Below, in pieces: positions 25,510 to 30,315 of a stretch of DNA of 64,000 nucleotides. Source of the DNA: a virus; the IMG/VR virus record IMGVR_UViG_3300009506_000019, positions 64,001 through 128,000 of that record. One strand, given 5' to 3'. Under the pieces are notes generated by a model. The model was not told where the DNA came from, searched no databases, and saw nothing but the letters and a program-made list of their open reading frames with translations. Made by a program: the position numbers and the translations under genes. Each line of letters starts with the position of its first letter. The stretch's first letter is position 1.

Positions 25510-26274
25510 CTAGGTGTCGGCAATCACAGTGTACGTCTTGATGAGCGTGCCCACGCCCGACAGTAAGCTGAGACCGCTGACATCGATGGTGACGGTGATG
25601 ATGTCACCGATCTCGTAGATCTTTGTGGCTCCCGCGTCGGTGTCCATCACGACATCTATGGTAAGGTAGCCAGCCTCGAACTGAGGAGTCCCAGCAGGGG
25701 TCGCCGGCTTCACACATGTCGGAGCACCCCCCGTCCCCGTTGCAATGGGTACATAGGCAGGGGTGACTGTGGGAACGAAGTTGGCCCAGCCGTGGAGCAA
25801 CCCTTCAGAGGTAACCAGCTTCACACCGACTTTTTTGATCAATTCCCCAGCCGCTGCTCCATTGAGATCACCAACCTCAATGTCTTCAGCCAGGGCTCCG
25901 GGGTAAATGTTCAGAGCCGCATCCCCTTCTGCCATTGCCCCAACCACCTTCTCCAAACTCCGAACTGCATTTTGGAGAGCGAGCATAGAAAGAGAAGACT
26001 GATCATTCGCTGACTCGAGAGAATTCGTTAAGGTGCTGGTAGCCGCATCAAATTTGTCTTTACCAGCGTCTTCGAATTCATCAGGGGTGTCTGGATCTTC
26101 CTCAACAGTATAGCTAATATGCCCAGCTTGCTGGAGCTTTACCAGCTCGTCCACAGCTTGTTCTGGAAGATCATCAAAAAATCGTTTACTCTTCTCACCA
26201 CTAGCAGGGACGGAGAGTCTCAAAGACTGAATTGAAACTTTGACGTTTCGAAGATTCTTAATAGTAAGAAGCAT
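25510..26274 (-). CDS. Hypothetical (possibly virion) protein
   Basis: GAGGAG before ATG 26274; upstream promoter. Confidence 0.65.
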   Translation of the reverse strand: MLLTIKNLRNVKVSIQSLRLSVPASGEKSKRFFDDLPEQAVDELVKLQQAGHISYTVEEDPDTPDEFEDAGKDKFDAATSTLTNSLESANDQSSLSMLALQNAVRSLEKVVGAMAEGDAALNIYPGALAEDIEVGDLNGAAAGELIKKVGVKLVTSEGLLHGWANFVPTVTPAYVPIATGTGGAPTCVKPATPAGTPQFEAGYLTIDVVMDTDAGATKIYEIGDIITVTIDVSGLSLLSGVGTLIKTYTVIADT

Positions 26275-26349
26275 TTGTCTCTCCTCGCGATAACATCGCA
26301 ATGATATATAATATTCTAATTAAAAGTGTCTTTAGAAATACTTAAAAAT

Positions 26350-26378
26350 ATTGTACGCGTGATCACAATAATATGCAA
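26350..26378 (-). promoter_or_regulatory. Sigma70-type promoter
   Basis: TTGCAT-17nt-TACAAT in AT-rich gap. Confidence 0.6.
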
Positions 26379-26394
26379 TACATTAAAACGATTA

Positions 26395-26470
26395 TGGCGG
26401 GAGAGGAGGGACTCGAACCCTCATCAAACAGGTTAACGGCCTGTTGCTCAGCCAATTGAGCTACACTCCC
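26395..26470 (-). tRNA. tRNA-Asn(GTT), C33
   Basis: Cloverleaf, loop CC-GTT-AA, encoded CCA. Confidence 0.88.
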
Positions 26471-26474
26471 GCAT

Positions 26475-26549
26475 TGGTGGGGCGGAGTGGAATCGAACCA
26501 CTGCTCTCGGATTTTCAGTCCAAAGCTCTACCAACTGAGCTACCACCCC
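26475..26549 (-). tRNA. tRNA-Phe(GAA)
   Basis: Cloverleaf, loop CT-GAA-AA, CCA. Confidence 0.93.
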
Positions 26550-26552
26550 ATG

Positions 26553-26625
26553 TGCAGAGCTGGTCAGCCACGCGCTACCCATCCCAGATTGTGCTGGGCC
26601 AAAGCCTTGTCCGCTGCGCTCTGCA
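26553..26625 (-). ncRNA. Unassigned tRNA-sized structured RNA
   Basis: 8-bp closing stem TGCAGAGC/GCTCTGCA, CCCAG/CTGGG hairpin, no TTCGA loop. Confidence 0.45.
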
Positions 26626-26638
26626 ACTCTTACTTGTT

Positions 26639-26715
26639 TGGTGGACCGGACGGGACTCGAACCCGTGACCTCCTGGGTGCAAACCAAGCGCTCTCCCAAC
26701 TGAGCTACGCGGCCC
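26639..26715 (-). tRNA. tRNA-Ala(TGC)
   Basis: Loop TT-TGC-AC, G3-U70, one bulged base in acceptor stem, CCA. Confidence 0.92.
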
Positions 26716-26716
26716 A

Positions 26717-26792
26717 TGGAGCTGGTGAGAGGAATTGAACCTCCAACATCCGGTTTACAAGACCGGGGCTCTGCCAATTGAGCTACACCAGC
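26717..26792 (-). tRNA. tRNA-Thr(TGT)
   Basis: Loop CT-TGT-AA, CCA. Confidence 0.93.
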
Positions 26793-26810
26793 TCTTTGCC
26801 AGCGTTCAAT

Positions 26811-26885
26811 TGGCGGGCCTACTCCGACTCGAACGGAGATCTCCGGTTTTGGAGACCGGCATCCTACCAATTGAACGATAGACCC
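26811..26885 (-). tRNA. tRNA-Trp(CCA)
   Basis: Loop CT-CCA-AA, CCA end. Confidence 0.92.
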
Positions 26886-26905
26886 TTGTTTCTTCACCAC
26901 CCGGC

Positions 26906-26980
26906 TGGTGGGCCGGGAGGGAATCGAACCCTCAACAAACGGGTTAAAAGCCCGCTGCGCTACCGTTGCGCCACCGGCCC
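26906..26980 (-). tRNA. tRNA-Lys(TTT)
   Basis: Loop CT-TTT-AA, CCA. Confidence 0.93.
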
Positions 26981-27014
26981 ACACCGCCGATGGTCTTCTC
27001 CTCAGCGAACCGGA

Positions 27015-27091
27015 TGGTCCGCCAGGGAGGACTCGAACCCCCGACACGCGGGGTAGAAACCCGCTGCTCTGTCCAACTGAGCTACTGACGG
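27015..27091 (-). tRNA. tRNA-Arg(TCT)
   Basis: Loop TT-TCT-AC, CCA. Confidence 0.9.
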
Positions 27092-27111
27092 ACAGATCCG
27101 ATATTCGCGAC

Positions 27112-27187
27112 TGGTAGGCGAGGGGAGAATCGAACTCACCAACCTGTCGCTTATAAGGCGACGGCTCTACCATTGAGCTACTCGCCA
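27112..27187 (-). tRNA. tRNA-Ile(TAT)
   Basis: Loop CT-TAT-AA, U1:U72 mismatch, CCA. Confidence 0.88.
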
Positions 27188-27199
27188 TTTCTCTCGAGT

Positions 27200-27274
27200 T
27201 GGACCGCCAGGTCGGAATCGAACCGACGTGCGCCTGCTTGGAAGGCAGGGGACCAGCCACTAGCCCACTGGCGG
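27200..27274 (-). tRNA. tRNA-Gly(TCC)
   Basis: Loop CT-TCC-AA, U73, CCA. Confidence 0.9.
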
Positions 27275-27277
27275 TTT

Positions 27278-27353
27278 TGGTGCGCAGAGCAGGGCTCGAA
27301 CCTGCGACCCTCTGCTTGTAAGGCAGACGCTCTCCCAACTGAGCTACCCGCGC
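27278..27353 (-). tRNA. tRNA-Val(TAC)
   Basis: Loop CT-TAC-AA, CCA. Confidence 0.93.
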
Positions 27354-27355
27354 AC

Positions 27356-27431
27356 TGGTCCAGGTGAGTGGAATTGAACCACTGACATCACGATTATCGG
27401 TCGTGTGCTCTCCCATCTGAGCTACACCTGG
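27356..27431 (-). tRNA. tRNA-Ile(GAT), C33
   Basis: Loop CC-GAT-AA, CCA. Confidence 0.9.
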
Positions 27432-27443
27432 ACAATGAAAGGC

Positions 27444-27567
27444 GGGGCTGGGGCGTCGCGCTCTTTCCATGCATCGACCATTCGCACCCTCTGGCTTAGC
27501 GAGCCAGCGCACAGTTTCTGGGGTGTCAGCCCCATGGTCTACCCCACGCTCTGACAAGCGTTGCCCC
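27444..27567 (-). ncRNA. Unassigned multi-stem RNA with complementary (kissing) loops
   Basis: Hairpin loops TGTCAG and CTGACA are exact complements; additional GACCAT/ATGGTC and CTGGCT/AGCCAG stems. Confidence 0.6.
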
Positions 27568-27574
27568 ATAATTT

Positions 27575-27649
27575 TGGTAGCGGGAGCGAGAATCGAACTC
27601 GCGACGGTCTGGTTATGAGCCAGATGTTCTACCACTGAACTATCCCGCA
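27575..27649 (-). tRNA. tRNA-Met(CAT)
   Basis: Loop CT-CAT-AA, U1:U72 mismatch, CCA; initiator/elongator status unclear. Confidence 0.88.
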
Positions 27650-27660
27650 ACAAATGCAAG

Positions 27661-27736
27661 TGGAGGGCCAGGCAGGAGTCGAACCCGCGACACCTTGGTC
27701 CGTAGCCAAGTGCTCTGTCCACTGAGCTACTGGCCC
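27661..27736 (-). tRNA. tRNA-Arg(ACG)
   Basis: Loop CT-ACG-GA, CCA. Confidence 0.92.
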
Positions 27737-27738
27737 TT

Positions 27739-27814
27739 TGGCGGTGCGTACGGGAATCGAACCCGTCGTTTCCTGAGTGACAGTCAGGCCGGTTCACCAG
27801 CTCCGTCACGCACC
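27739..27814 (-). tRNA. tRNA-Asp(GTC)
   Basis: Loop CT-GTC-AC, G73, CCA. Confidence 0.9.
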
Positions 27815-27901
27815 GAGACGTGACCCAACTGTCCTTCAGTAGGTTCTGACCGTTTTGTCGATACCACCGAAGGAGGTCAGTTAGGCCACGGTGGTATCTC
27901 G
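27815..27901 (-). promoter_or_regulatory. Putative attenuator: mutually exclusive RNA structures between leader 1 and tRNA-Asp
   Basis: Perfect 10-bp GATACCACCG/CGGTGGTATC helix competes with long CGTGGCCTAACTG..TCCTTCGGT/ACTGAAGGA-CAGTTGGGTCACG hairpin. Confidence 0.65.
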
Positions 27902-27988
27902 AAAATTCGCTTTAATACCGGCCCACATTGTCGTCGTTATGACGACTCTTCCGGTCCTTGCGACCGAATGTGTGCCGAGGGGTAACAT
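27881..27988 (-). CDS. Putative leader peptide 1 (35 aa) of the 14-tRNA operon
   Basis: MLPLGTHSVARTGRVVITTTMWAGIKANFRDTTVA*; last 27 residues use exactly the 12 amino acids of the downstream tRNAs; ATG 7 nt after TATAAT. Confidence 0.8.
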   Translation of the reverse strand: MLPLGTHSVARTGRVVITTTMWAGIKANFRDTTVA

Positions 27989-27995
27989 CACGATC

Positions 27996-28024
27996 ATTAT
28001 AACACAGCATGCTGTGCGTGTGAA
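27996..28024 (-). promoter_or_regulatory. Sigma70-type extended -10 promoter of the 14-tRNA operon, with 14-bp palindrome in spacer
   Basis: TTCACA-17nt-TATAAT, TGn; CACAGCATGCTGTG at 28003-28016. Confidence 0.75.
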
Positions 28025-28031
28025 TTATTAG

Positions 28032-28115
28032 TGCTGAGGGCGGGACTCGAACCCGCACGAGCAATTGCCCAGGAGATTTTAAGTCTCCAGTGTCTACCAA
28101 TTCCACCACCCCAGC
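28032..28115 (-). tRNA. tRNA-Leu(TAA), CCA not encoded
   Basis: Long variable arm, loop CT-TAA-AA, ends A-CTA. Confidence 0.92.
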
Positions 28116-28116
28116 T

Positions 28117-28202
28117 TGGTGGGCAAGGAGGGAATCGAACCCTCAATCCCGAAGGCACTGGTATTTGAAGCCAGCGTGTATACCAAGTTCCACCACTTGC
28201 CC
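28117..28202 (-). tRNA. tRNA-Leu(CAA)
   Basis: Long variable arm, loop TT-CAA-AT, CCA. Confidence 0.9.
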
Positions 28203-28280
28203 ATGAGCTACGCGCCCTGGAACCCTGTCGTAGCTCGATGACGCCCTCCTACGTGCTTGACGCCACACCACTTTCTCGAT

Positions 28281-28366
28281 TGGTGGGTGCGGAGGGAGTC
28301 GAACCCTCAATCCCGAAGGCACCAGATCCTAAATCTGGCGTGTATCCCAAGTTCCACCACGCACCC
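28281..28366 (-). tRNA. tRNA-Leu(TAG)
   Basis: Long variable arm, loop TT-TAG-GA, CCA. Confidence 0.92.
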
Positions 28367-28367
28367 T

Positions 28368-28453
28368 TGGTACGGGAGGCGGGACTCGAACCCGCACGGA
28401 CAAGCCACATGCTCCTCGGGCATGCGCGTCTACCATGATTCCGCCACTCCCGT
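28368..28453 (-). tRNA. tRNA-Leu(GAG), C33
   Basis: Long variable arm, loop CC-GAG-GA, CCA. Confidence 0.9.
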
Positions 28454-28463
28454 AGCTTACTTT

Positions 28464-28529
28464 TTACAAGGATAAGAGTCGCAGGAGGAAACCTGCGACA
28501 GCGATCGAGTTGTGCGTTTTATTCGCCAT
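28464..28529 (-). CDS. Putative leader peptide 2 (21 aa) of the tRNA-Leu operon
   Basis: MANKTHNSIAVAGFLLRLLSL*; Leu codons CTC CTG CTC TTA TTG; overlaps 8-bp hairpin GTCGCAGG/CCTGCGAC; stop 10 nt before tRNA-Leu(GAG). Confidence 0.7.
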   Translation of the reverse strand: MANKTHNSIAVAGFLLRLLSL

Positions 28530-28538
28530 CTCACTCCA

Positions 28539-28567
28539 AGTATAACATACTGGTGACCGCACATCAA
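28539..28567 (-). promoter_or_regulatory. Sigma70-type extended -10 promoter of the tRNA-Leu operon
   Basis: TTGATG-17nt-TATACT with TGn. Confidence 0.7.
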
Positions 28568-28586
28568 TCATTACCTATATCCGGAC

Positions 28587-28760
28587 ATGGACGAACAGCA
28601 ACAAAAAGATGCATTAGAGTTGTTGAAGGAAGCCACGGCAGCTCACCCAGACATTGTTTATGGAAGACCCAACACAGTAATTTCTCACACAGACATGGTG
28701 AATTGGTTGTATCAGTGGATTCCTCGAGTTCAAGGCTTCCTTGATGAAGTTGATGGATAA
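28587..28760 (+). CDS. Small hypothetical protein (57 aa, below ORF-track cutoff)
   Basis: MDEQQQKDALELLKEATAAHPDIVYGRPNTVISHTDMVNWLYQWIPRVQGFLDEVDG*; fills the divergent gap. Confidence 0.5.
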   Translation: MDEQQQKDALELLKEATAAHPDIVYGRPNTVISHTDMVNWLYQWIPRVQGFLDEVDG

Positions 28761-28812
28761 ATTGACAACCACCACGTGATTATGATCTAATTGGAAGTGA
28801 TAGGAGAACGTC

Positions 28813-28923
28813 ATGGATACCGTGATGAAAAACACAGGCTTCGCTGTTCTTGCCAACGCCCTTGTTGGTCAGTCGCAGCCGTGTTACTCCTATCATCATT
28901 ATTCACAACCACACAGTAGTTAA
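28813..28923 (+). CDS. Putative leader peptide 3 (36 aa) of the 7-tRNA operon
   Basis: AGGAG RBS; MDTVMKNTGFAVLANALVGQSQPCYSYHHYSQPHSS*; last 17 residues are only Q,S,P,C,Y,H; stop 16 nt before tRNA-Ser. Confidence 0.85.
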   Translation: MDTVMKNTGFAVLANALVGQSQPCYSYHHYSQPHSS

Positions 28924-28939
28924 GGCACGCTCACATAGA

Positions 28940-29029
28940 GGAGCGGTAGCCTAGCCTGGTAAGGCGGCGGGTTGCTAACCCGTTGGTGTGCTTGCACACT
29001 CGAGGGTTCGAATCCCTCCCGCTCCGCCA
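28940..29029 (+). tRNA. tRNA-Ser(GCT)
   Basis: Long variable arm, loop TT-GCT-AA, CCA. Confidence 0.93.
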
Positions 29030-29047
29030 TTTTCTTGTGAGGTTGTG

Positions 29048-29230
29048 ATGAAGGATGAATTCAAGAAAGCAGTAATCATGACAGGTGACGTACCGCACTG
29101 TTCGTGTCGGTATTGCAAAAACCTGAATCGCACCAGAATCGACAGGAAAAAGCAAAGAAAACAAAAGAGAAAAAGGAGGGCAAGACAGATTTTGAAGAAA
29201 TATTTACGTACGGGAGTAGCGCAGTGGTAG
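29048..29230 (+). CDS. Small basic protein with HCxCxxC motif inside tRNA operon
   Basis: GAGG before ATG 29048; MKDEFKKAVIMTGDVPHCSCRYCKNLNRTRIDRKKQRKQKRKRRARQILKKYLRTGVAQW*; last codons overlap tRNA-Pro. Confidence 0.6.
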   Translation: MKDEFKKAVIMTGDVPHCSCRYCKNLNRTRIDRKKQRKQKRKRRARQILKKYLRTGVAQW

Positions 29231-29284
29231 CGCACCGGTTTTGGGAGCCGGGGGTCGTGAGTTCAACCCTCACCTCCCGTACCA
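29210..29284 (+). tRNA. tRNA-Pro(TGG)
   Basis: Loop TT-TGG-GA, CCA. Confidence 0.9.
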
Positions 29285-29287
29285 AAC

Positions 29288-29375
29288 GGATGGGTAGCCT
29301 AATTGGTAAGGCACCAGTCTTGAAAACTGGCGATGCATTCGTGCACTGCGGGTTCGAGTCCTGCCCCATCCGCCA
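29288..29375 (+). tRNA. tRNA-Ser(TGA)
   Basis: Long variable arm, loop CT-TGA-AA, CCA. Confidence 0.93.
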
Positions 29376-29384
29376 GCTTAAATT

Positions 29385-29455
29385 GCACCCGGCCGCAGGC
29401 GAAAGCCGAATTGGACCGAGCGAAAGCCGAAAGTCCGAGGATGACGGCCGGGTGC
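29385..29455 (+). ncRNA. Unassigned structured RNA with GAAA tetraloops
   Basis: Perfect 11-bp stem GCACCCGGCCG/CGGCCGGGTGC enclosing GGC-GAAA-GCC and GGAC..GC-GAAA-GC..GTCC. Confidence 0.6.
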
Positions 29456-29460
29456 TTTAT

Positions 29461-29536
29461 GGCGGTTGTAGCTCAATGGAAGAGCATCCGGTTGTGGCCC
29501 GGAAGACGAGGAGTTCAATTCTCCCCAATCGCCCCA
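29461..29536 (+). tRNA. tRNA-His(GTG)
   Basis: G-1:C73, loop TT-GTG-GC, CCA. Confidence 0.92.
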
Positions 29537-29539
29537 AAA

Positions 29540-29614
29540 GGCCAGATAGCCAAGTGGCAAGGCATGGAGCTGCAACCTCCATCATCGTCGGTTCGATTCC
29601 GACTCTGGCCTCCA
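29540..29614 (+). tRNA. tRNA-Cys(GCA)
   Basis: Loop CT-GCA-AC, U73, CCA. Confidence 0.93.
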
Positions 29615-29615
29615 C

Positions 29616-29689
29616 AGAGGAGTCGCTCAATGGCAGGGCAACGGGTTTTGGCCCCGTTTATCTGGGTTCGATTCCCAGCTCCTCTTCCA
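29616..29689 (+). tRNA. tRNA-Gln(TTG)
   Basis: Loop TT-TTG-GC, CCA. Confidence 0.9.
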
Positions 29690-29694
29690 TCCAT

Positions 29695-29782
29695 GGGTGT
29701 GTAGACCGCTATGGACACGGGCTTGGCTGTAGACCAAGCGTGCTTTGGCACCGTGAAGGTTCGATTCCTTCCACACCCACCA
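29695..29782 (+). tRNA. tRNA-Tyr(GTA)
   Basis: Long variable arm, loop CT-GTA-GA, CCA. Confidence 0.9.
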
Positions 29783-30244
29783 TCAATCATCTGAAGCTTC
29801 AGCCCAGGTGAACTGAACACCCCAACTACCACTCGGATTATCAAACCAGTGGAGTGCCTCGGTGTGGTCGAGCCCCATCCTCATCTTGCCGTACGAAAAA
29901 CCATCTTCTCCATGGCCTGCGGTGTACTTCCCTCCACGAGTATTCAACTCCACATCACCGTTCTCCGGTCCATGTTTGGAAACTGTCGTCAAGCACCAAC
30001 CACCGTCTTCGTCTTTGTACATATCGACGTAGTAGTAGTCTCCTGGCGTATACTCCTTGCCTCGATTGTCGAGTGCCGGACCTCGGAAATTCAACGTGGC
30101 ATCGCCTGACGGAGTGAACTTCCAGAACACCGCATTCTCAGGATTCTTGCCATTCTGAAGGACTGGACCCAACTCGACGATGACTGAACGGTCCCACTTC
30201 TTGGTGACTGACAAACAACGGAATTTTGCGCGTACTTGTCTCAT
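29783..30244 (-). CDS. Hypothetical phage protein
   Basis: GGAGG RBS; RAKFRC...ENAVFWKFTPSG motif; own promoter. Confidence 0.7.
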   Translation of the reverse strand: MRQVRAKFRCLSVTKKWDRSVIVELGPVLQNGKNPENAVFWKFTPSGDATLNFRGPALDNRGKEYTPGDYYYVDMYKDEDGGWCLTTVSKHGPENGDVELNTRGGKYTAGHGEDGFSYGKMRMGLDHTEALHWFDNPSGSWGVQFTWAEASDD

Positions 30245-30315
30245 CTCTTCCTCCAAAAACGGTTTGAGTTGAGACCGCGCTGTTGACCCGGATCGCGGAC
30301 GTGCCGGTTACTATT

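What the first reader, a model, noticed from the sequence alone, without database searches (positions are those of the whole stretch)
26395..29782. Candidate new system: three tRNA operons, each led by a leader peptide matching its own tRNA content
Seen: 25 tRNAs form three transcription units, each preceded by a tiny ORF below the ORF-track cutoff. Leader 1 (27881-27988, -) ends in 27 residues using exactly the 12 amino acids of its 14 tRNAs (D,R,M,I,V,G,K,W,T,A,F,N). Leader 3 (28813-28923, +) ends in 17 residues using exactly the 6 amino acids of its 7 tRNAs (S,P,H,C,Q,Y). Leader 2 (28464-28529, -) ends LLRLLSL before four tRNA-Leu. All three overlap RNA structures. Known: ribosome-stalling attenuation (trpL, hisL, leuL, thrL, ilvL, pheM) senses charged tRNA, and phage tRNAs can rescue infection from host anticodon nucleases. 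Inference: this is a multiplexed tRNA-depletion sensor in which loss of any host tRNA in a set stalls the ribosome and induces the phage operon carrying the replacement. I know of no description of leader-peptide control of phage tRNA arrays. Rough uniform-codon odds: (18/61)^17 about 1e-9 and (35/61)^27 about 3e-7.
Basis: partly seen in the sequence, partly recalled or inferred. Interest (0 to 1): 0.97.

Follow-up and report, generated by a model that had tools for sequence, protein, structure and literature searches.

The report
Codon-matched leader ORFs before phage tRNA operons
In this 166-kb uncultured phage and its relatives, each block of tRNA genes follows a tiny reading frame whose last codons spell only the amino acids of the tRNAs behind it. 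It looks like a ribosome-read gauge of tRNA supply, a control I could not find published for tRNA genes.

Summary
Leader 1 ends in 27 codons drawn only from the 12 amino acids of its 14 tRNAs and samples all 14 isoacceptors. Leader 3 ends in 17 codons drawn only from S, P, H, C, Q and Y. Leader 2 ends LLRLLSL and uses one codon for each of the four tRNA-Leu.

The pattern is conserved and co-varies in relatives:
- Where the S/P and H/C/Q/Y tRNAs form separate clusters (L006, L073), separate S/P-rich and H/C/Q/Y-rich leaders precede them.
- In a close relative (L078), the leader lacks ATA and tRNA-Ile(UAU) is missing from its usual place. The leader gains AAG where tRNA-Lys(CUU) is present.

Sigma-70-like promoters sit 6-9 nt before most leader ATGs, which implies leaderless mRNAs.

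A sensor of tRNA supply is the best reading, but the mechanism is inferred. Only leader 2 carries a terminator-like hairpin. Leader 1 has a conserved hairpin around its stop codon with no U-tract. Leader 3 shows no terminator.

Exceptions exist: L003, a Glu codon in L078, and a solo tRNA-Glu without a leader.

This scan has noted the same design in other phage genomes. I found no published description.

The parts
27996..28024 (-). Promoter of leader 1 / tRNA operon 1: TTCACA-17-TATAAT with a TG extended -10
   Evidence: 11 of 12 matches. The -10 hexamer ends 7 nt before ATG 27988.
27881..27988 (-). Leader 1 ORF (35 codons plus stop), probably a leaderless mRNA. The upstream in-frame ATG at 27997 is not conserved in L078.
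   Evidence: Homologues in L078, L003 and L068.
27884..27964 (-). Leader 1 sampling run: 27 codons using only the 12 amino acids of the operon and hitting all 14 isoacceptors. It includes ATA and ATT for Ile, and AGG/AGA and CGA for Arg.
27860..27898 (-). Stop-codon hairpin: GAUACCACCG (codons D-T-T-V) pairs with CGGUGGUAUC, with the UAA in the loop.
   Evidence: The same architecture occurs with different sequences in L003 and L068.
27819..27890 (-). Long alternative hairpin from the last codons to 4 nt before tRNA-Asp, with no U-tract.
   Evidence: z = -6.0. Conserved in L078.
26395..27814 (-). tRNA operon 1: Asp, Arg(ACG), Met, Ile(GAU), Val, Gly, Ile(UAU), Arg(UCU), Lys, Trp, Thr, Ala, Phe, Asn.
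28539..28567 (-). Promoter of leader 2: TTGATG-17-TATACT with TG.
   Evidence: The -10 hexamer ends 9 nt before ATG 28529.
28464..28529 (-). Leader 2 ORF MANKTHNSIAVAGFLLRLLSL. Its five Leu codons cover all four tRNA-Leu isoacceptors.
   Evidence: Analogues in L006 and L073.
28468..28499 (-). Terminator-like hairpin GTCGCAGG-TTTCCT-CCTGCGAC plus TCTTATCCTT, lying inside leader 2 over its Leu codons.
   Evidence: the only terminator-like site in 26200-30300.
28031..28453 (-). tRNA-Leu operon (GAG, UAG, CAA, UAA).
28803..28806 (+). GGAG Shine-Dalgarno site 6 nt before the leader 3 ATG. In the predicted fold it pairs with CUCCUAU inside the sampling run.
28813..28923 (+). Leader 3 ORF (36 codons plus stop).
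28870..28920 (+). Leader 3 sampling run: 17 codons of S, P, H, C, Q and Y only, using both TCN and AGT Ser codons. The tract is C-rich and G-poor.
28940..29782 (+). tRNA operon 3: Ser(GCU), Pro, Ser(UGA), His, Cys, Gln, Tyr.

Best explanation
The three mini-ORFs are translated cis-acting leaders of the phage's tRNA operons. Each ends in a run of codons that samples every tRNA species encoded behind it and no others. The time a ribosome needs to cross the run therefore reports the cell's decoding capacity for exactly that tRNA set.

Ribosome position then decides the fate of the nascent transcript through RNA structures that overlap the leader's 3' end:
- in L2, a terminator-like hairpin over the Leu codons;
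- in L1, a conserved hairpin around the stop codon that competes with a long hairpin abutting the first tRNA;
- in L3, possibly a C-rich, Rho-type tract.

The most likely logic is that of amino-acid-operon attenuators. Slow decoding, from a scarce host or phage tRNA, raises tRNA output, and ample supply shuts it down.

Shown: the ORFs, their composition and isoacceptor coverage, their conservation and co-variation, the promoter and Shine-Dalgarno placement, and the hairpins.
Inferred: translation, the coupling to transcription or processing, and the direction of control.
For: 1. The composition match is extreme in the window.
2. All 25 isoacceptors are sampled by their own leader. For L1, the chance of this coverage given an in-set run is 0.008.
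3. In a leader-by-set matrix over 11 leader/cluster pairs from 5 contigs, own-set scores lead clearly for operon-1, S/P and H/C/Q/Y leaders. Leu leaders score highest against Leu only in the window and L073, and narrowly. Five pairs have 0 of 5000 shuffles reaching the observed score.
4. The fused S/P/H/C/Q/Y leader in the window contrasts with L006 and L073. There, a separate S/P leader (PSSSSPSPSPSPSSP; PSSPSSHPSPS) and a separate H/C/Q/Y leader (YQHCHQY; HQHQYC) precede separate clusters.
5. Window versus L078 (leader about 85% identical): ATA is replaced by AAA where tRNA-Ile(UAU) is absent from its place in the visible part of the operon. AAG is gained where tRNA-Lys(CUU) is present. An in-frame 3-nt indel and synonymous changes are also seen.
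6. L006 carries Gln(CUG) and Gln(UUG), and its leader uses both CAG and CAA.
7. Promoters: -10 hexamers end 6-9 nt before the leader ATG in seven leaders. S/P-type leaders instead carry GGAG, GAGGAGG or GGAGGA.
8. A stop-codon hairpin is kept in four L1 leaders through different sequences.
9. The L2 ORF runs through the only terminator-like hairpin of the region.
10. Distant or unrelated arrays (L008, L076, L072) give no signal. The one L080 hit (p about 0.003) lies out of frame of a small zinc-ribbon-like ORF.
Against: - No canonical intrinsic terminator follows L1, L3 or the H/C/Q/Y leaders of relatives.
- No terminator/antiterminator pair could be defined for L2.
- L003's leader keeps Ala, Phe and ATC codons although its visible array lacks those tRNAs.
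- L078's run contains one Glu codon.
- The genome's 26th tRNA (Glu) sits alone behind a protein gene, without an E-rich leader.
- Single codons spread over 81 nt are hard to reconcile with a classical position-specific stall.
Confidence: 0.55

Rival explanations
1. Same leaders, opposite logic (pyrBI-like coupling or positive feedback). A ribosome that keeps pace with RNA polymerase melts the hairpins at the leader's end and lets transcription or maturation proceed. The operon is then expressed only while its own codon set is decoded fast, for example once phage tRNAs have taken over.
For: - The L2 ORF extends through the whole terminator-like hairpin and its T-tract, which is the pyrBI geometry.
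- In L1, the last codons form the 5' arm of the conserved stop-codon hairpin, so a ribosome that finishes the ORF must open it.
- Leaderless starts put the ribosome at the very 5' end of the transcript.
Against: - Positive feedback on a stable product has no obvious benefit.
- It would not need exclusion of other amino acids only from the 3' part of the ORF.
- There is no U-tract after the L1 hairpins.
Confidence: 0.15
2. The leaders act after transcription. Ribosome occupancy of the leader's 3' end controls folding, RNase III/E/P processing or stability of the precursor, and so the yield of mature tRNAs. It does not control termination.
For: - In L2 and L3 the stop codons lie only 10-16 nt before the first tRNA.
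- The long L1 hairpin (roughly 30 bp with bulges) ends 4 nt before tRNA-Asp and lacks a U-tract.
- No terminators are seen for most leaders.
Against: - No processing signal could be identified by sequence.
- The H/C/Q/Y leaders of relatives end 86-107 nt before the first tRNA, without a conserved structure.
Confidence: 0.15
3. The ORFs encode small functional peptides, or are untranslated RNA elements. The match to the tRNA sets would then be an indirect by-product, for example of RNN versus YNN periodicity or C-rich composition.
For: - Operon 1 amino acids are mostly read from purine-first codons and operon 3 amino acids from pyrimidine-first codons, so periodic sequence explains part of the match.
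- S/P runs are low-complexity.
Against: - Given pyrimidine-first codons, roughly (16/29)^15, about 1e-4, remains for L3 (hand calculation from the codon table).
- In L1, the three non-purine-first codons are exactly W, F and CGA, the three exceptions in the tRNA set.
- Leader sequences drift freely within the set, while the set tracks the cluster in relatives.
- No Rfam family matches.
Confidence: 0.06
4. Chance.
For: L2 alone is not significant (264 of 5000 shuffles).
Against: -.
- The pattern recurs independently in L006, L073, L078, L003 and L068.
Confidence: 0.01

Closest known systems
Ribosome-mediated leader-peptide transcription attenuators of enterobacterial amino-acid operons (trpL, hisL, leuL, thrL, ilvL; multivalent ilvGMEDA leader) and of pheST (pheM)
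   Same: A short ORF lies just after the promoter. Codons cognate to the regulated function are concentrated near its 3' end. RNA hairpins overlap the ORF's end. L2 resembles leuL: a Leu-codon run plus a terminator-like hairpin.
   Different: The regulated genes are the tRNAs themselves. One leader samples up to 12 amino acids and 14 isoacceptors, mostly with single codons. Most leaders appear leaderless. Canonical terminator/antiterminator pairs are absent for L1 and L3. The setting is a phage.
pyrBI leader (transcription-translation coupling over an attenuator)
   Same: The leader ORF reads through the whole terminator hairpin, as in L2.
   Different: pyrBI senses UTP through polymerase pausing, not tRNA supply. 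It has no codon set matched to downstream genes.
tnaC / Rho-dependent leader control (also mgtL, mgtP)
   Same: A ribosome at the end of a leader could mask a C-rich, G-poor tract next to the stop codon. L3 and the S/P leaders have C 0.30-0.44 and G 0.16-0.19.
   Different: No rut site or Rho dependence is shown. The C-richness is forced by the Ser, Pro, His and Gln codons.
T-box riboswitches
   Same: They sense the state of a specific tRNA and control genes of the translation apparatus.
   Different: A T-box binds tRNA directly, with one specifier codon and no ORF. No T-box or other Rfam leader matches here.
Phage tRNA arrays as counter-defence or codon compensation (e.g. PMC10264068)
   Same: A large phage-borne tRNA set. 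Here 26 tRNAs cover all 20 amino acids.
   Different: In the full-text searches I ran, no paper on phage tRNAs turned up that describes codon-matched upstream ORFs.

Membership tests
Leader-peptide (ribosome-mediated) transcription attenuator | Short ORF with usable start signals between the promoter and the regulated genes | tested here: met
   ORFs. The -10 hexamer ends 7 nt (L1) and 9 nt (L2) before the ATG. GGAG lies 6 nt before the L3 ATG. The same geometry occurs in relatives.
Leader-peptide (ribosome-mediated) transcription attenuator | Regulatory codons cognate to the regulated function, enriched beyond chance | tested here: met
   Co-variation in relatives.
Leader-peptide (ribosome-mediated) transcription attenuator | Intrinsic terminator (hairpin plus U-tract) between the leader codons and the regulated genes | tested here: inconclusive
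   L2 has one terminator-like site. L1 has strong hairpins but no U-tract. L3 and the H/C/Q/Y leaders of relatives have none.
Leader-peptide (ribosome-mediated) transcription attenuator | Mutually exclusive antiterminator structure, selected by ribosome position | tested here: inconclusive
   In L1, the stop-codon hairpin and the long hairpin share nucleotides. No alternative pairing was found for L2 or L3.
Leader-peptide (ribosome-mediated) transcription attenuator | Downstream expression depends on leader translation and on charged-tRNA level | not testable with these tools
T-box riboswitch | Specifier loop plus conserved T-box sequence / Rfam model | tested here: not met
   A permissive Rfam scan of 26300-29900 gave only tRNA hits above the curated gathering scores and no T-box or leader family.
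Known Rfam amino-acid leaders (Leu, His, Thr, Trp leaders) | Match to the covariance model | tested here: not met

The most novel reading that the evidence does not exclude
A previously undescribed and possibly widespread class of phage regulatory element. These would be multiplexed 'codon-sampling' mini-ORFs, often on leaderless transcripts. Through them a phage would measure the cell's decoding capacity for a defined set of up to 14 isoacceptors and set the output of the matching tRNA operon. That would give homeostatic tRNA supply and could serve as an alarm for host tRNA depletion or cleavage. The read-out would not be a classical intrinsic-terminator switch.
Probability: 0.5. Interest if true: 0.9.

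Novelty: new variant of a known kind. Interest (0 to 1): 0.86.

Why it matters
How phages regulate their tRNA genes is essentially unknown, and why they carry so many is still debated. A leader that samples exactly the operon's own tRNAs would have three consequences:
- tRNA supply would be sensed and tuned by translation itself.
- Attenuation logic would extend from amino-acid metabolism to the decoding apparatus.
- The result would be a compact, portable, multi-input sensor of decoding capacity, useful for studying anticodon-nuclease defences and for synthetic biology.

It also gives an annotation rule: look for codon-matched mini-ORFs in front of tRNA arrays. It would further explain why tRNAs are sorted into operons by amino acid.

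Tried and rejected
- Close relatives in GenBank phages: none found. Only single-tRNA matches came back. tblastn with neighbouring proteins gave nothing, or one distant hit, Rctr197k.
- Single-protein scans of IMG/VR found no relative.
- Exact tRNA probes found only G001, or unrelated AT-rich jumbo phages that lack leaders.
- Several Logan or NCBI contigs had no retrievable DNA.
- P0063 turned out to be bacterial.
- Prediction of an E-rich leader before the solo tRNA-Glu: not met.
- Distant relative L008 (36 tRNAs by my ARAGORN run, plus a tmRNA): no leaders seen.
- L080 'TWRRTWRR' hit (p about 0.003): it has no start codon and lies out of frame of a small zinc-ribbon-like ORF, so I treated it as chance.
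- Conserved terminators in the H/C/Q/Y leader spacers: none.
- Known RNA families: none.
- Compositional bias alone as the explanation: rejected (see rival explanations).


Full report
**What is there**

The window is bases 64001-128000 of a 166-kb IMG/VR virus record rated 100% complete. ARAGORN and Rfam agree on 25 tRNAs at 26395-29782. They fall into three groups:
- 14 tRNAs on the minus strand: D, R, M, I, V, G, I, R, K, W, T, A, F, N.
- Four tRNA-Leu on the minus strand.
- Seven tRNAs on the plus strand: S, P, S, H, C, Q, Y.

A 26th tRNA, Glu(UUC), lies elsewhere in the genome. The phage therefore carries tRNAs for all 20 amino acids, with a single U34 tRNA for each four-codon box except Leu.

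The three mini-ORFs are present with the stated sequences.
- L1 ends in 27 residues drawn only from the 12 amino acids of its operon. It includes both Ile codon classes (ATA, ATT) and both Arg classes (AGG/AGA, CGA), so all 14 isoacceptors are sampled.
- L3 ends in 17 residues of S, P, H, C, Q and Y only, using both TCN and AGT Ser codons.
- L2 ends LLRLLSL, with CTC, CTG, TTA and TTG covering the four tRNA-Leu.

The statistics are strong.
- In all six frames of the window, the L3-type run (17) is the longest, and the next is 9. The L1-type run (27) is second only to a 31-residue run inside a long Gly/Ala-rich reading frame.
- With the phage's own amino-acid usage, the per-position odds are 6e-12 for L3 and 8e-6 for L1. 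Full isoacceptor coverage by 27 in-set codons has probability 0.008.
- Shuffles of the 200 nt upstream never reach the observed score for L1 or L3 (0 of 5000). L2 alone is weak (264 of 5000).
- Codon periodicity does not explain the match. Operon 1 is mostly purine-first and operon 3 mostly pyrimidine-first. Yet the three non-purine-first codons in L1 are exactly W, F and CGA, the three exceptions in its tRNA set.

**Relatives**

No close phage exists in GenBank. Homologues of the neighbouring 157-aa protein and of the spurious ORF that runs across the array led to related contigs.

L078 has a leader about 85% identical in nucleotides.
- Its leader is MLSLGLHTVAMTAEVVKTKTTMWAGIRRNFRDTTVA.
- Differences from the window include an in-frame 3-nt insertion, synonymous changes and within-set replacements (K,A to R,R).
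- ATA becomes AAA, and tRNA-Ile(UAU) is absent from its usual place in the visible part of the operon. It lies on the other strand elsewhere in the contig.
- AAG appears, and tRNA-Lys(CUU) has joined Lys(UUU) in the operon.
- One Glu codon is an exception. The contig ends before the operon does.

L003 and L068 carry 38-codon homologues ending NFR/Q-x-T-x-V/A.
- L003's visible array lacks D, W, A, F and Ile(GAU).
- Its leader lacks D and W but keeps A, F and ATC, so the match is only partial.

L006 (IMG/VR, 132 kb) and L073 (metagenome contig) have separate S/P and H/C/Q/Y clusters, each with its own leader.
- S/P clusters follow ...CPSSSSPSPSPSPSSPLSR (L006) and ...PSSPSSHPSPSI (L073).
- H/C/Q/Y clusters follow ...FYQHCHQYPAQA (L006) and ...QRHQHQYC (L073).
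- Both contigs also have Leu-rich leaders: ...GLLSLLR and ...HLLLR.
- L006 has Gln(CUG) and Gln(UUG) and uses both CAG and CAG's partner CAA.
- Relaxed ARAGORN found a fourth tRNA-Leu(CAG) in L006. All three Leu leaders therefore sample all four Leu classes.

In a matrix of 11 leader/cluster pairs against five amino-acid sets, own-set scores lead clearly for operon-1, S/P and H/C/Q/Y leaders. Leu leaders score highest against Leu only in the window and L073, and narrowly; L006's Leu leader scores slightly higher against the S/P/H/C/Q/Y set.

Distant or unrelated arrays (L008, L076, L072) give nothing. One L080 hit lies out of frame of a small zinc-ribbon-like ORF and has no start codon.

**Architecture**

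- The only two sigma-70-like promoters in 26200-30300 sit directly before L1 and L2. Both have an extended -10, ending 7 and 9 nt before the ATG.
- The same 6-7 nt spacing recurs in L003 L1, in the Leu and H/C/Q/Y leaders of L006, and in the Leu and H/C/Q/Y leaders of L073.
- This implies leaderless or nearly leaderless mRNAs.
- S/P-type leaders (window L3, L006, L073) instead carry GGAG, GAGGAGG or GGAGGA.
- In L073 the H/C/Q/Y unit is closed by a strong terminator after tRNA-Tyr.

**RNA structure**

- L2 contains the only terminator-like site of the region: an 8-bp hairpin plus TCTTATCCTT. It lies over the Leu codons and inside the ORF.
- L1 has a hairpin whose 5' arm is the last 3-4 codons and whose loop holds the UAA. 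It is kept in the window, L078, L003 and L068 through different sequences.
- In the window and L078 this hairpin competes with a long hairpin that ends 4 nt before tRNA-Asp (z = -6.0 and -4.4). Neither is followed by a U-tract.
- L3 shows Shine-Dalgarno pairing with the sampling run and an unstructured C-rich, G-poor tail.
- The H/C/Q/Y spacers of relatives show nothing conserved.
- Rfam finds no T-box or known leader.

**Interpretation**

Amino acids outside the set are excluded only from the 3' part of each ORF. Every isoacceptor is sampled, and the set tracks the cluster in relatives. Together these point to selection on decoding by a ribosome, that is, a sensor specific for that tRNA set. 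A demand-sensing attenuator is the most economical model, and L2 fits it best.

For L1 and L3 the read-out is unknown. It could be Rho, processing or structure switching. The opposite sign of control cannot be excluded.

The exceptions are L003, the Glu codon in L078, and the solo tRNA-Glu without a leader. They show that the match is not absolute.

**Prior knowledge**

Four full-text searches found no description of leader ORFs for tRNA operons. Earlier notes of this scan report the same design in several other phage genomes. I did not test those.

A quick look at a cultured jumbo phage, Tunturi_5, found an annotated 49-aa gene (gp308) just before a 13-tRNA cluster. It is enriched in that cluster's amino acids (at most 1 of 3000 shuffles). 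It is less pure than the leaders here but is a possible experimental handle.

Noticed in passing
window 27432-27574 (-): The 143-nt spacer between tRNA-Met and tRNA-Ile(GAU) is about 97% identical to L078 10062-10204, more conserved than leader 1 (85%). Two central differences (GGGG...CCCC to GGAG...CUCC) preserve a hairpin, but they are also synonymous in an ATG-started frame. No Rfam hit. It could be an unknown structured RNA or a mini-gene.
   Followed up: partly
window 29048-29230 (+): A 60-codon ORF lies between tRNA-Ser(GCU) and tRNA-Pro and runs into tRNA-Pro. It reads MKDEFKK...PHCSCRYC... followed by a very basic tail. L006 has an unrelated 82-aa ORF at a similar place between tRNAs.
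   Followed up: no
G000 genome 25834-25909 (+), outside the window: A solo tRNA-Glu(UUC) lies directly after a protein ORF. With it the phage has 26 tRNAs for all 20 amino acids, with one U34 tRNA for each four-codon box except Leu. This is a near-complete, superwobble-style decoding set.
   Followed up: partly
L078 10246-10674: An HNH-endonuclease-like ORF is inserted inside the tRNA array, between tRNA-Ile(GAU) and tRNA-Val.
   Followed up: no
window 26448-27809 (-): A spurious 453-aa ORF runs across the tRNA array. Similar false 'proteins' from related arrays are present in protein databases and were useful as a handle to find relatives.
   Followed up: yes
L082 (PP885688.1, Tunturiibacter phage Tunturi_5) 14104-14253 (-): The annotated hypothetical gp308 (49 aa) lies just upstream of a 13-tRNA cluster (W D M M K V K R R E E R R). 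It is enriched in those amino acids, with two Trp and one internal Met besides the start codon. It is a possible cultured example of the same design.
   Followed up: partly
window 28587-28760 (+): A 57-aa ORF with no family match lies upstream of leader 3 on the same strand. Leader 3 may be co-transcribed with it, since no sigma-70-like promoter was found for L3.
   Followed up: no
L008 13747-14116: A distant relative (138-kb IMG/VR contig, GC-rich) carries a tmRNA gene amid some 36 tRNAs, without recognisable codon-matched leaders.
   Followed up: no
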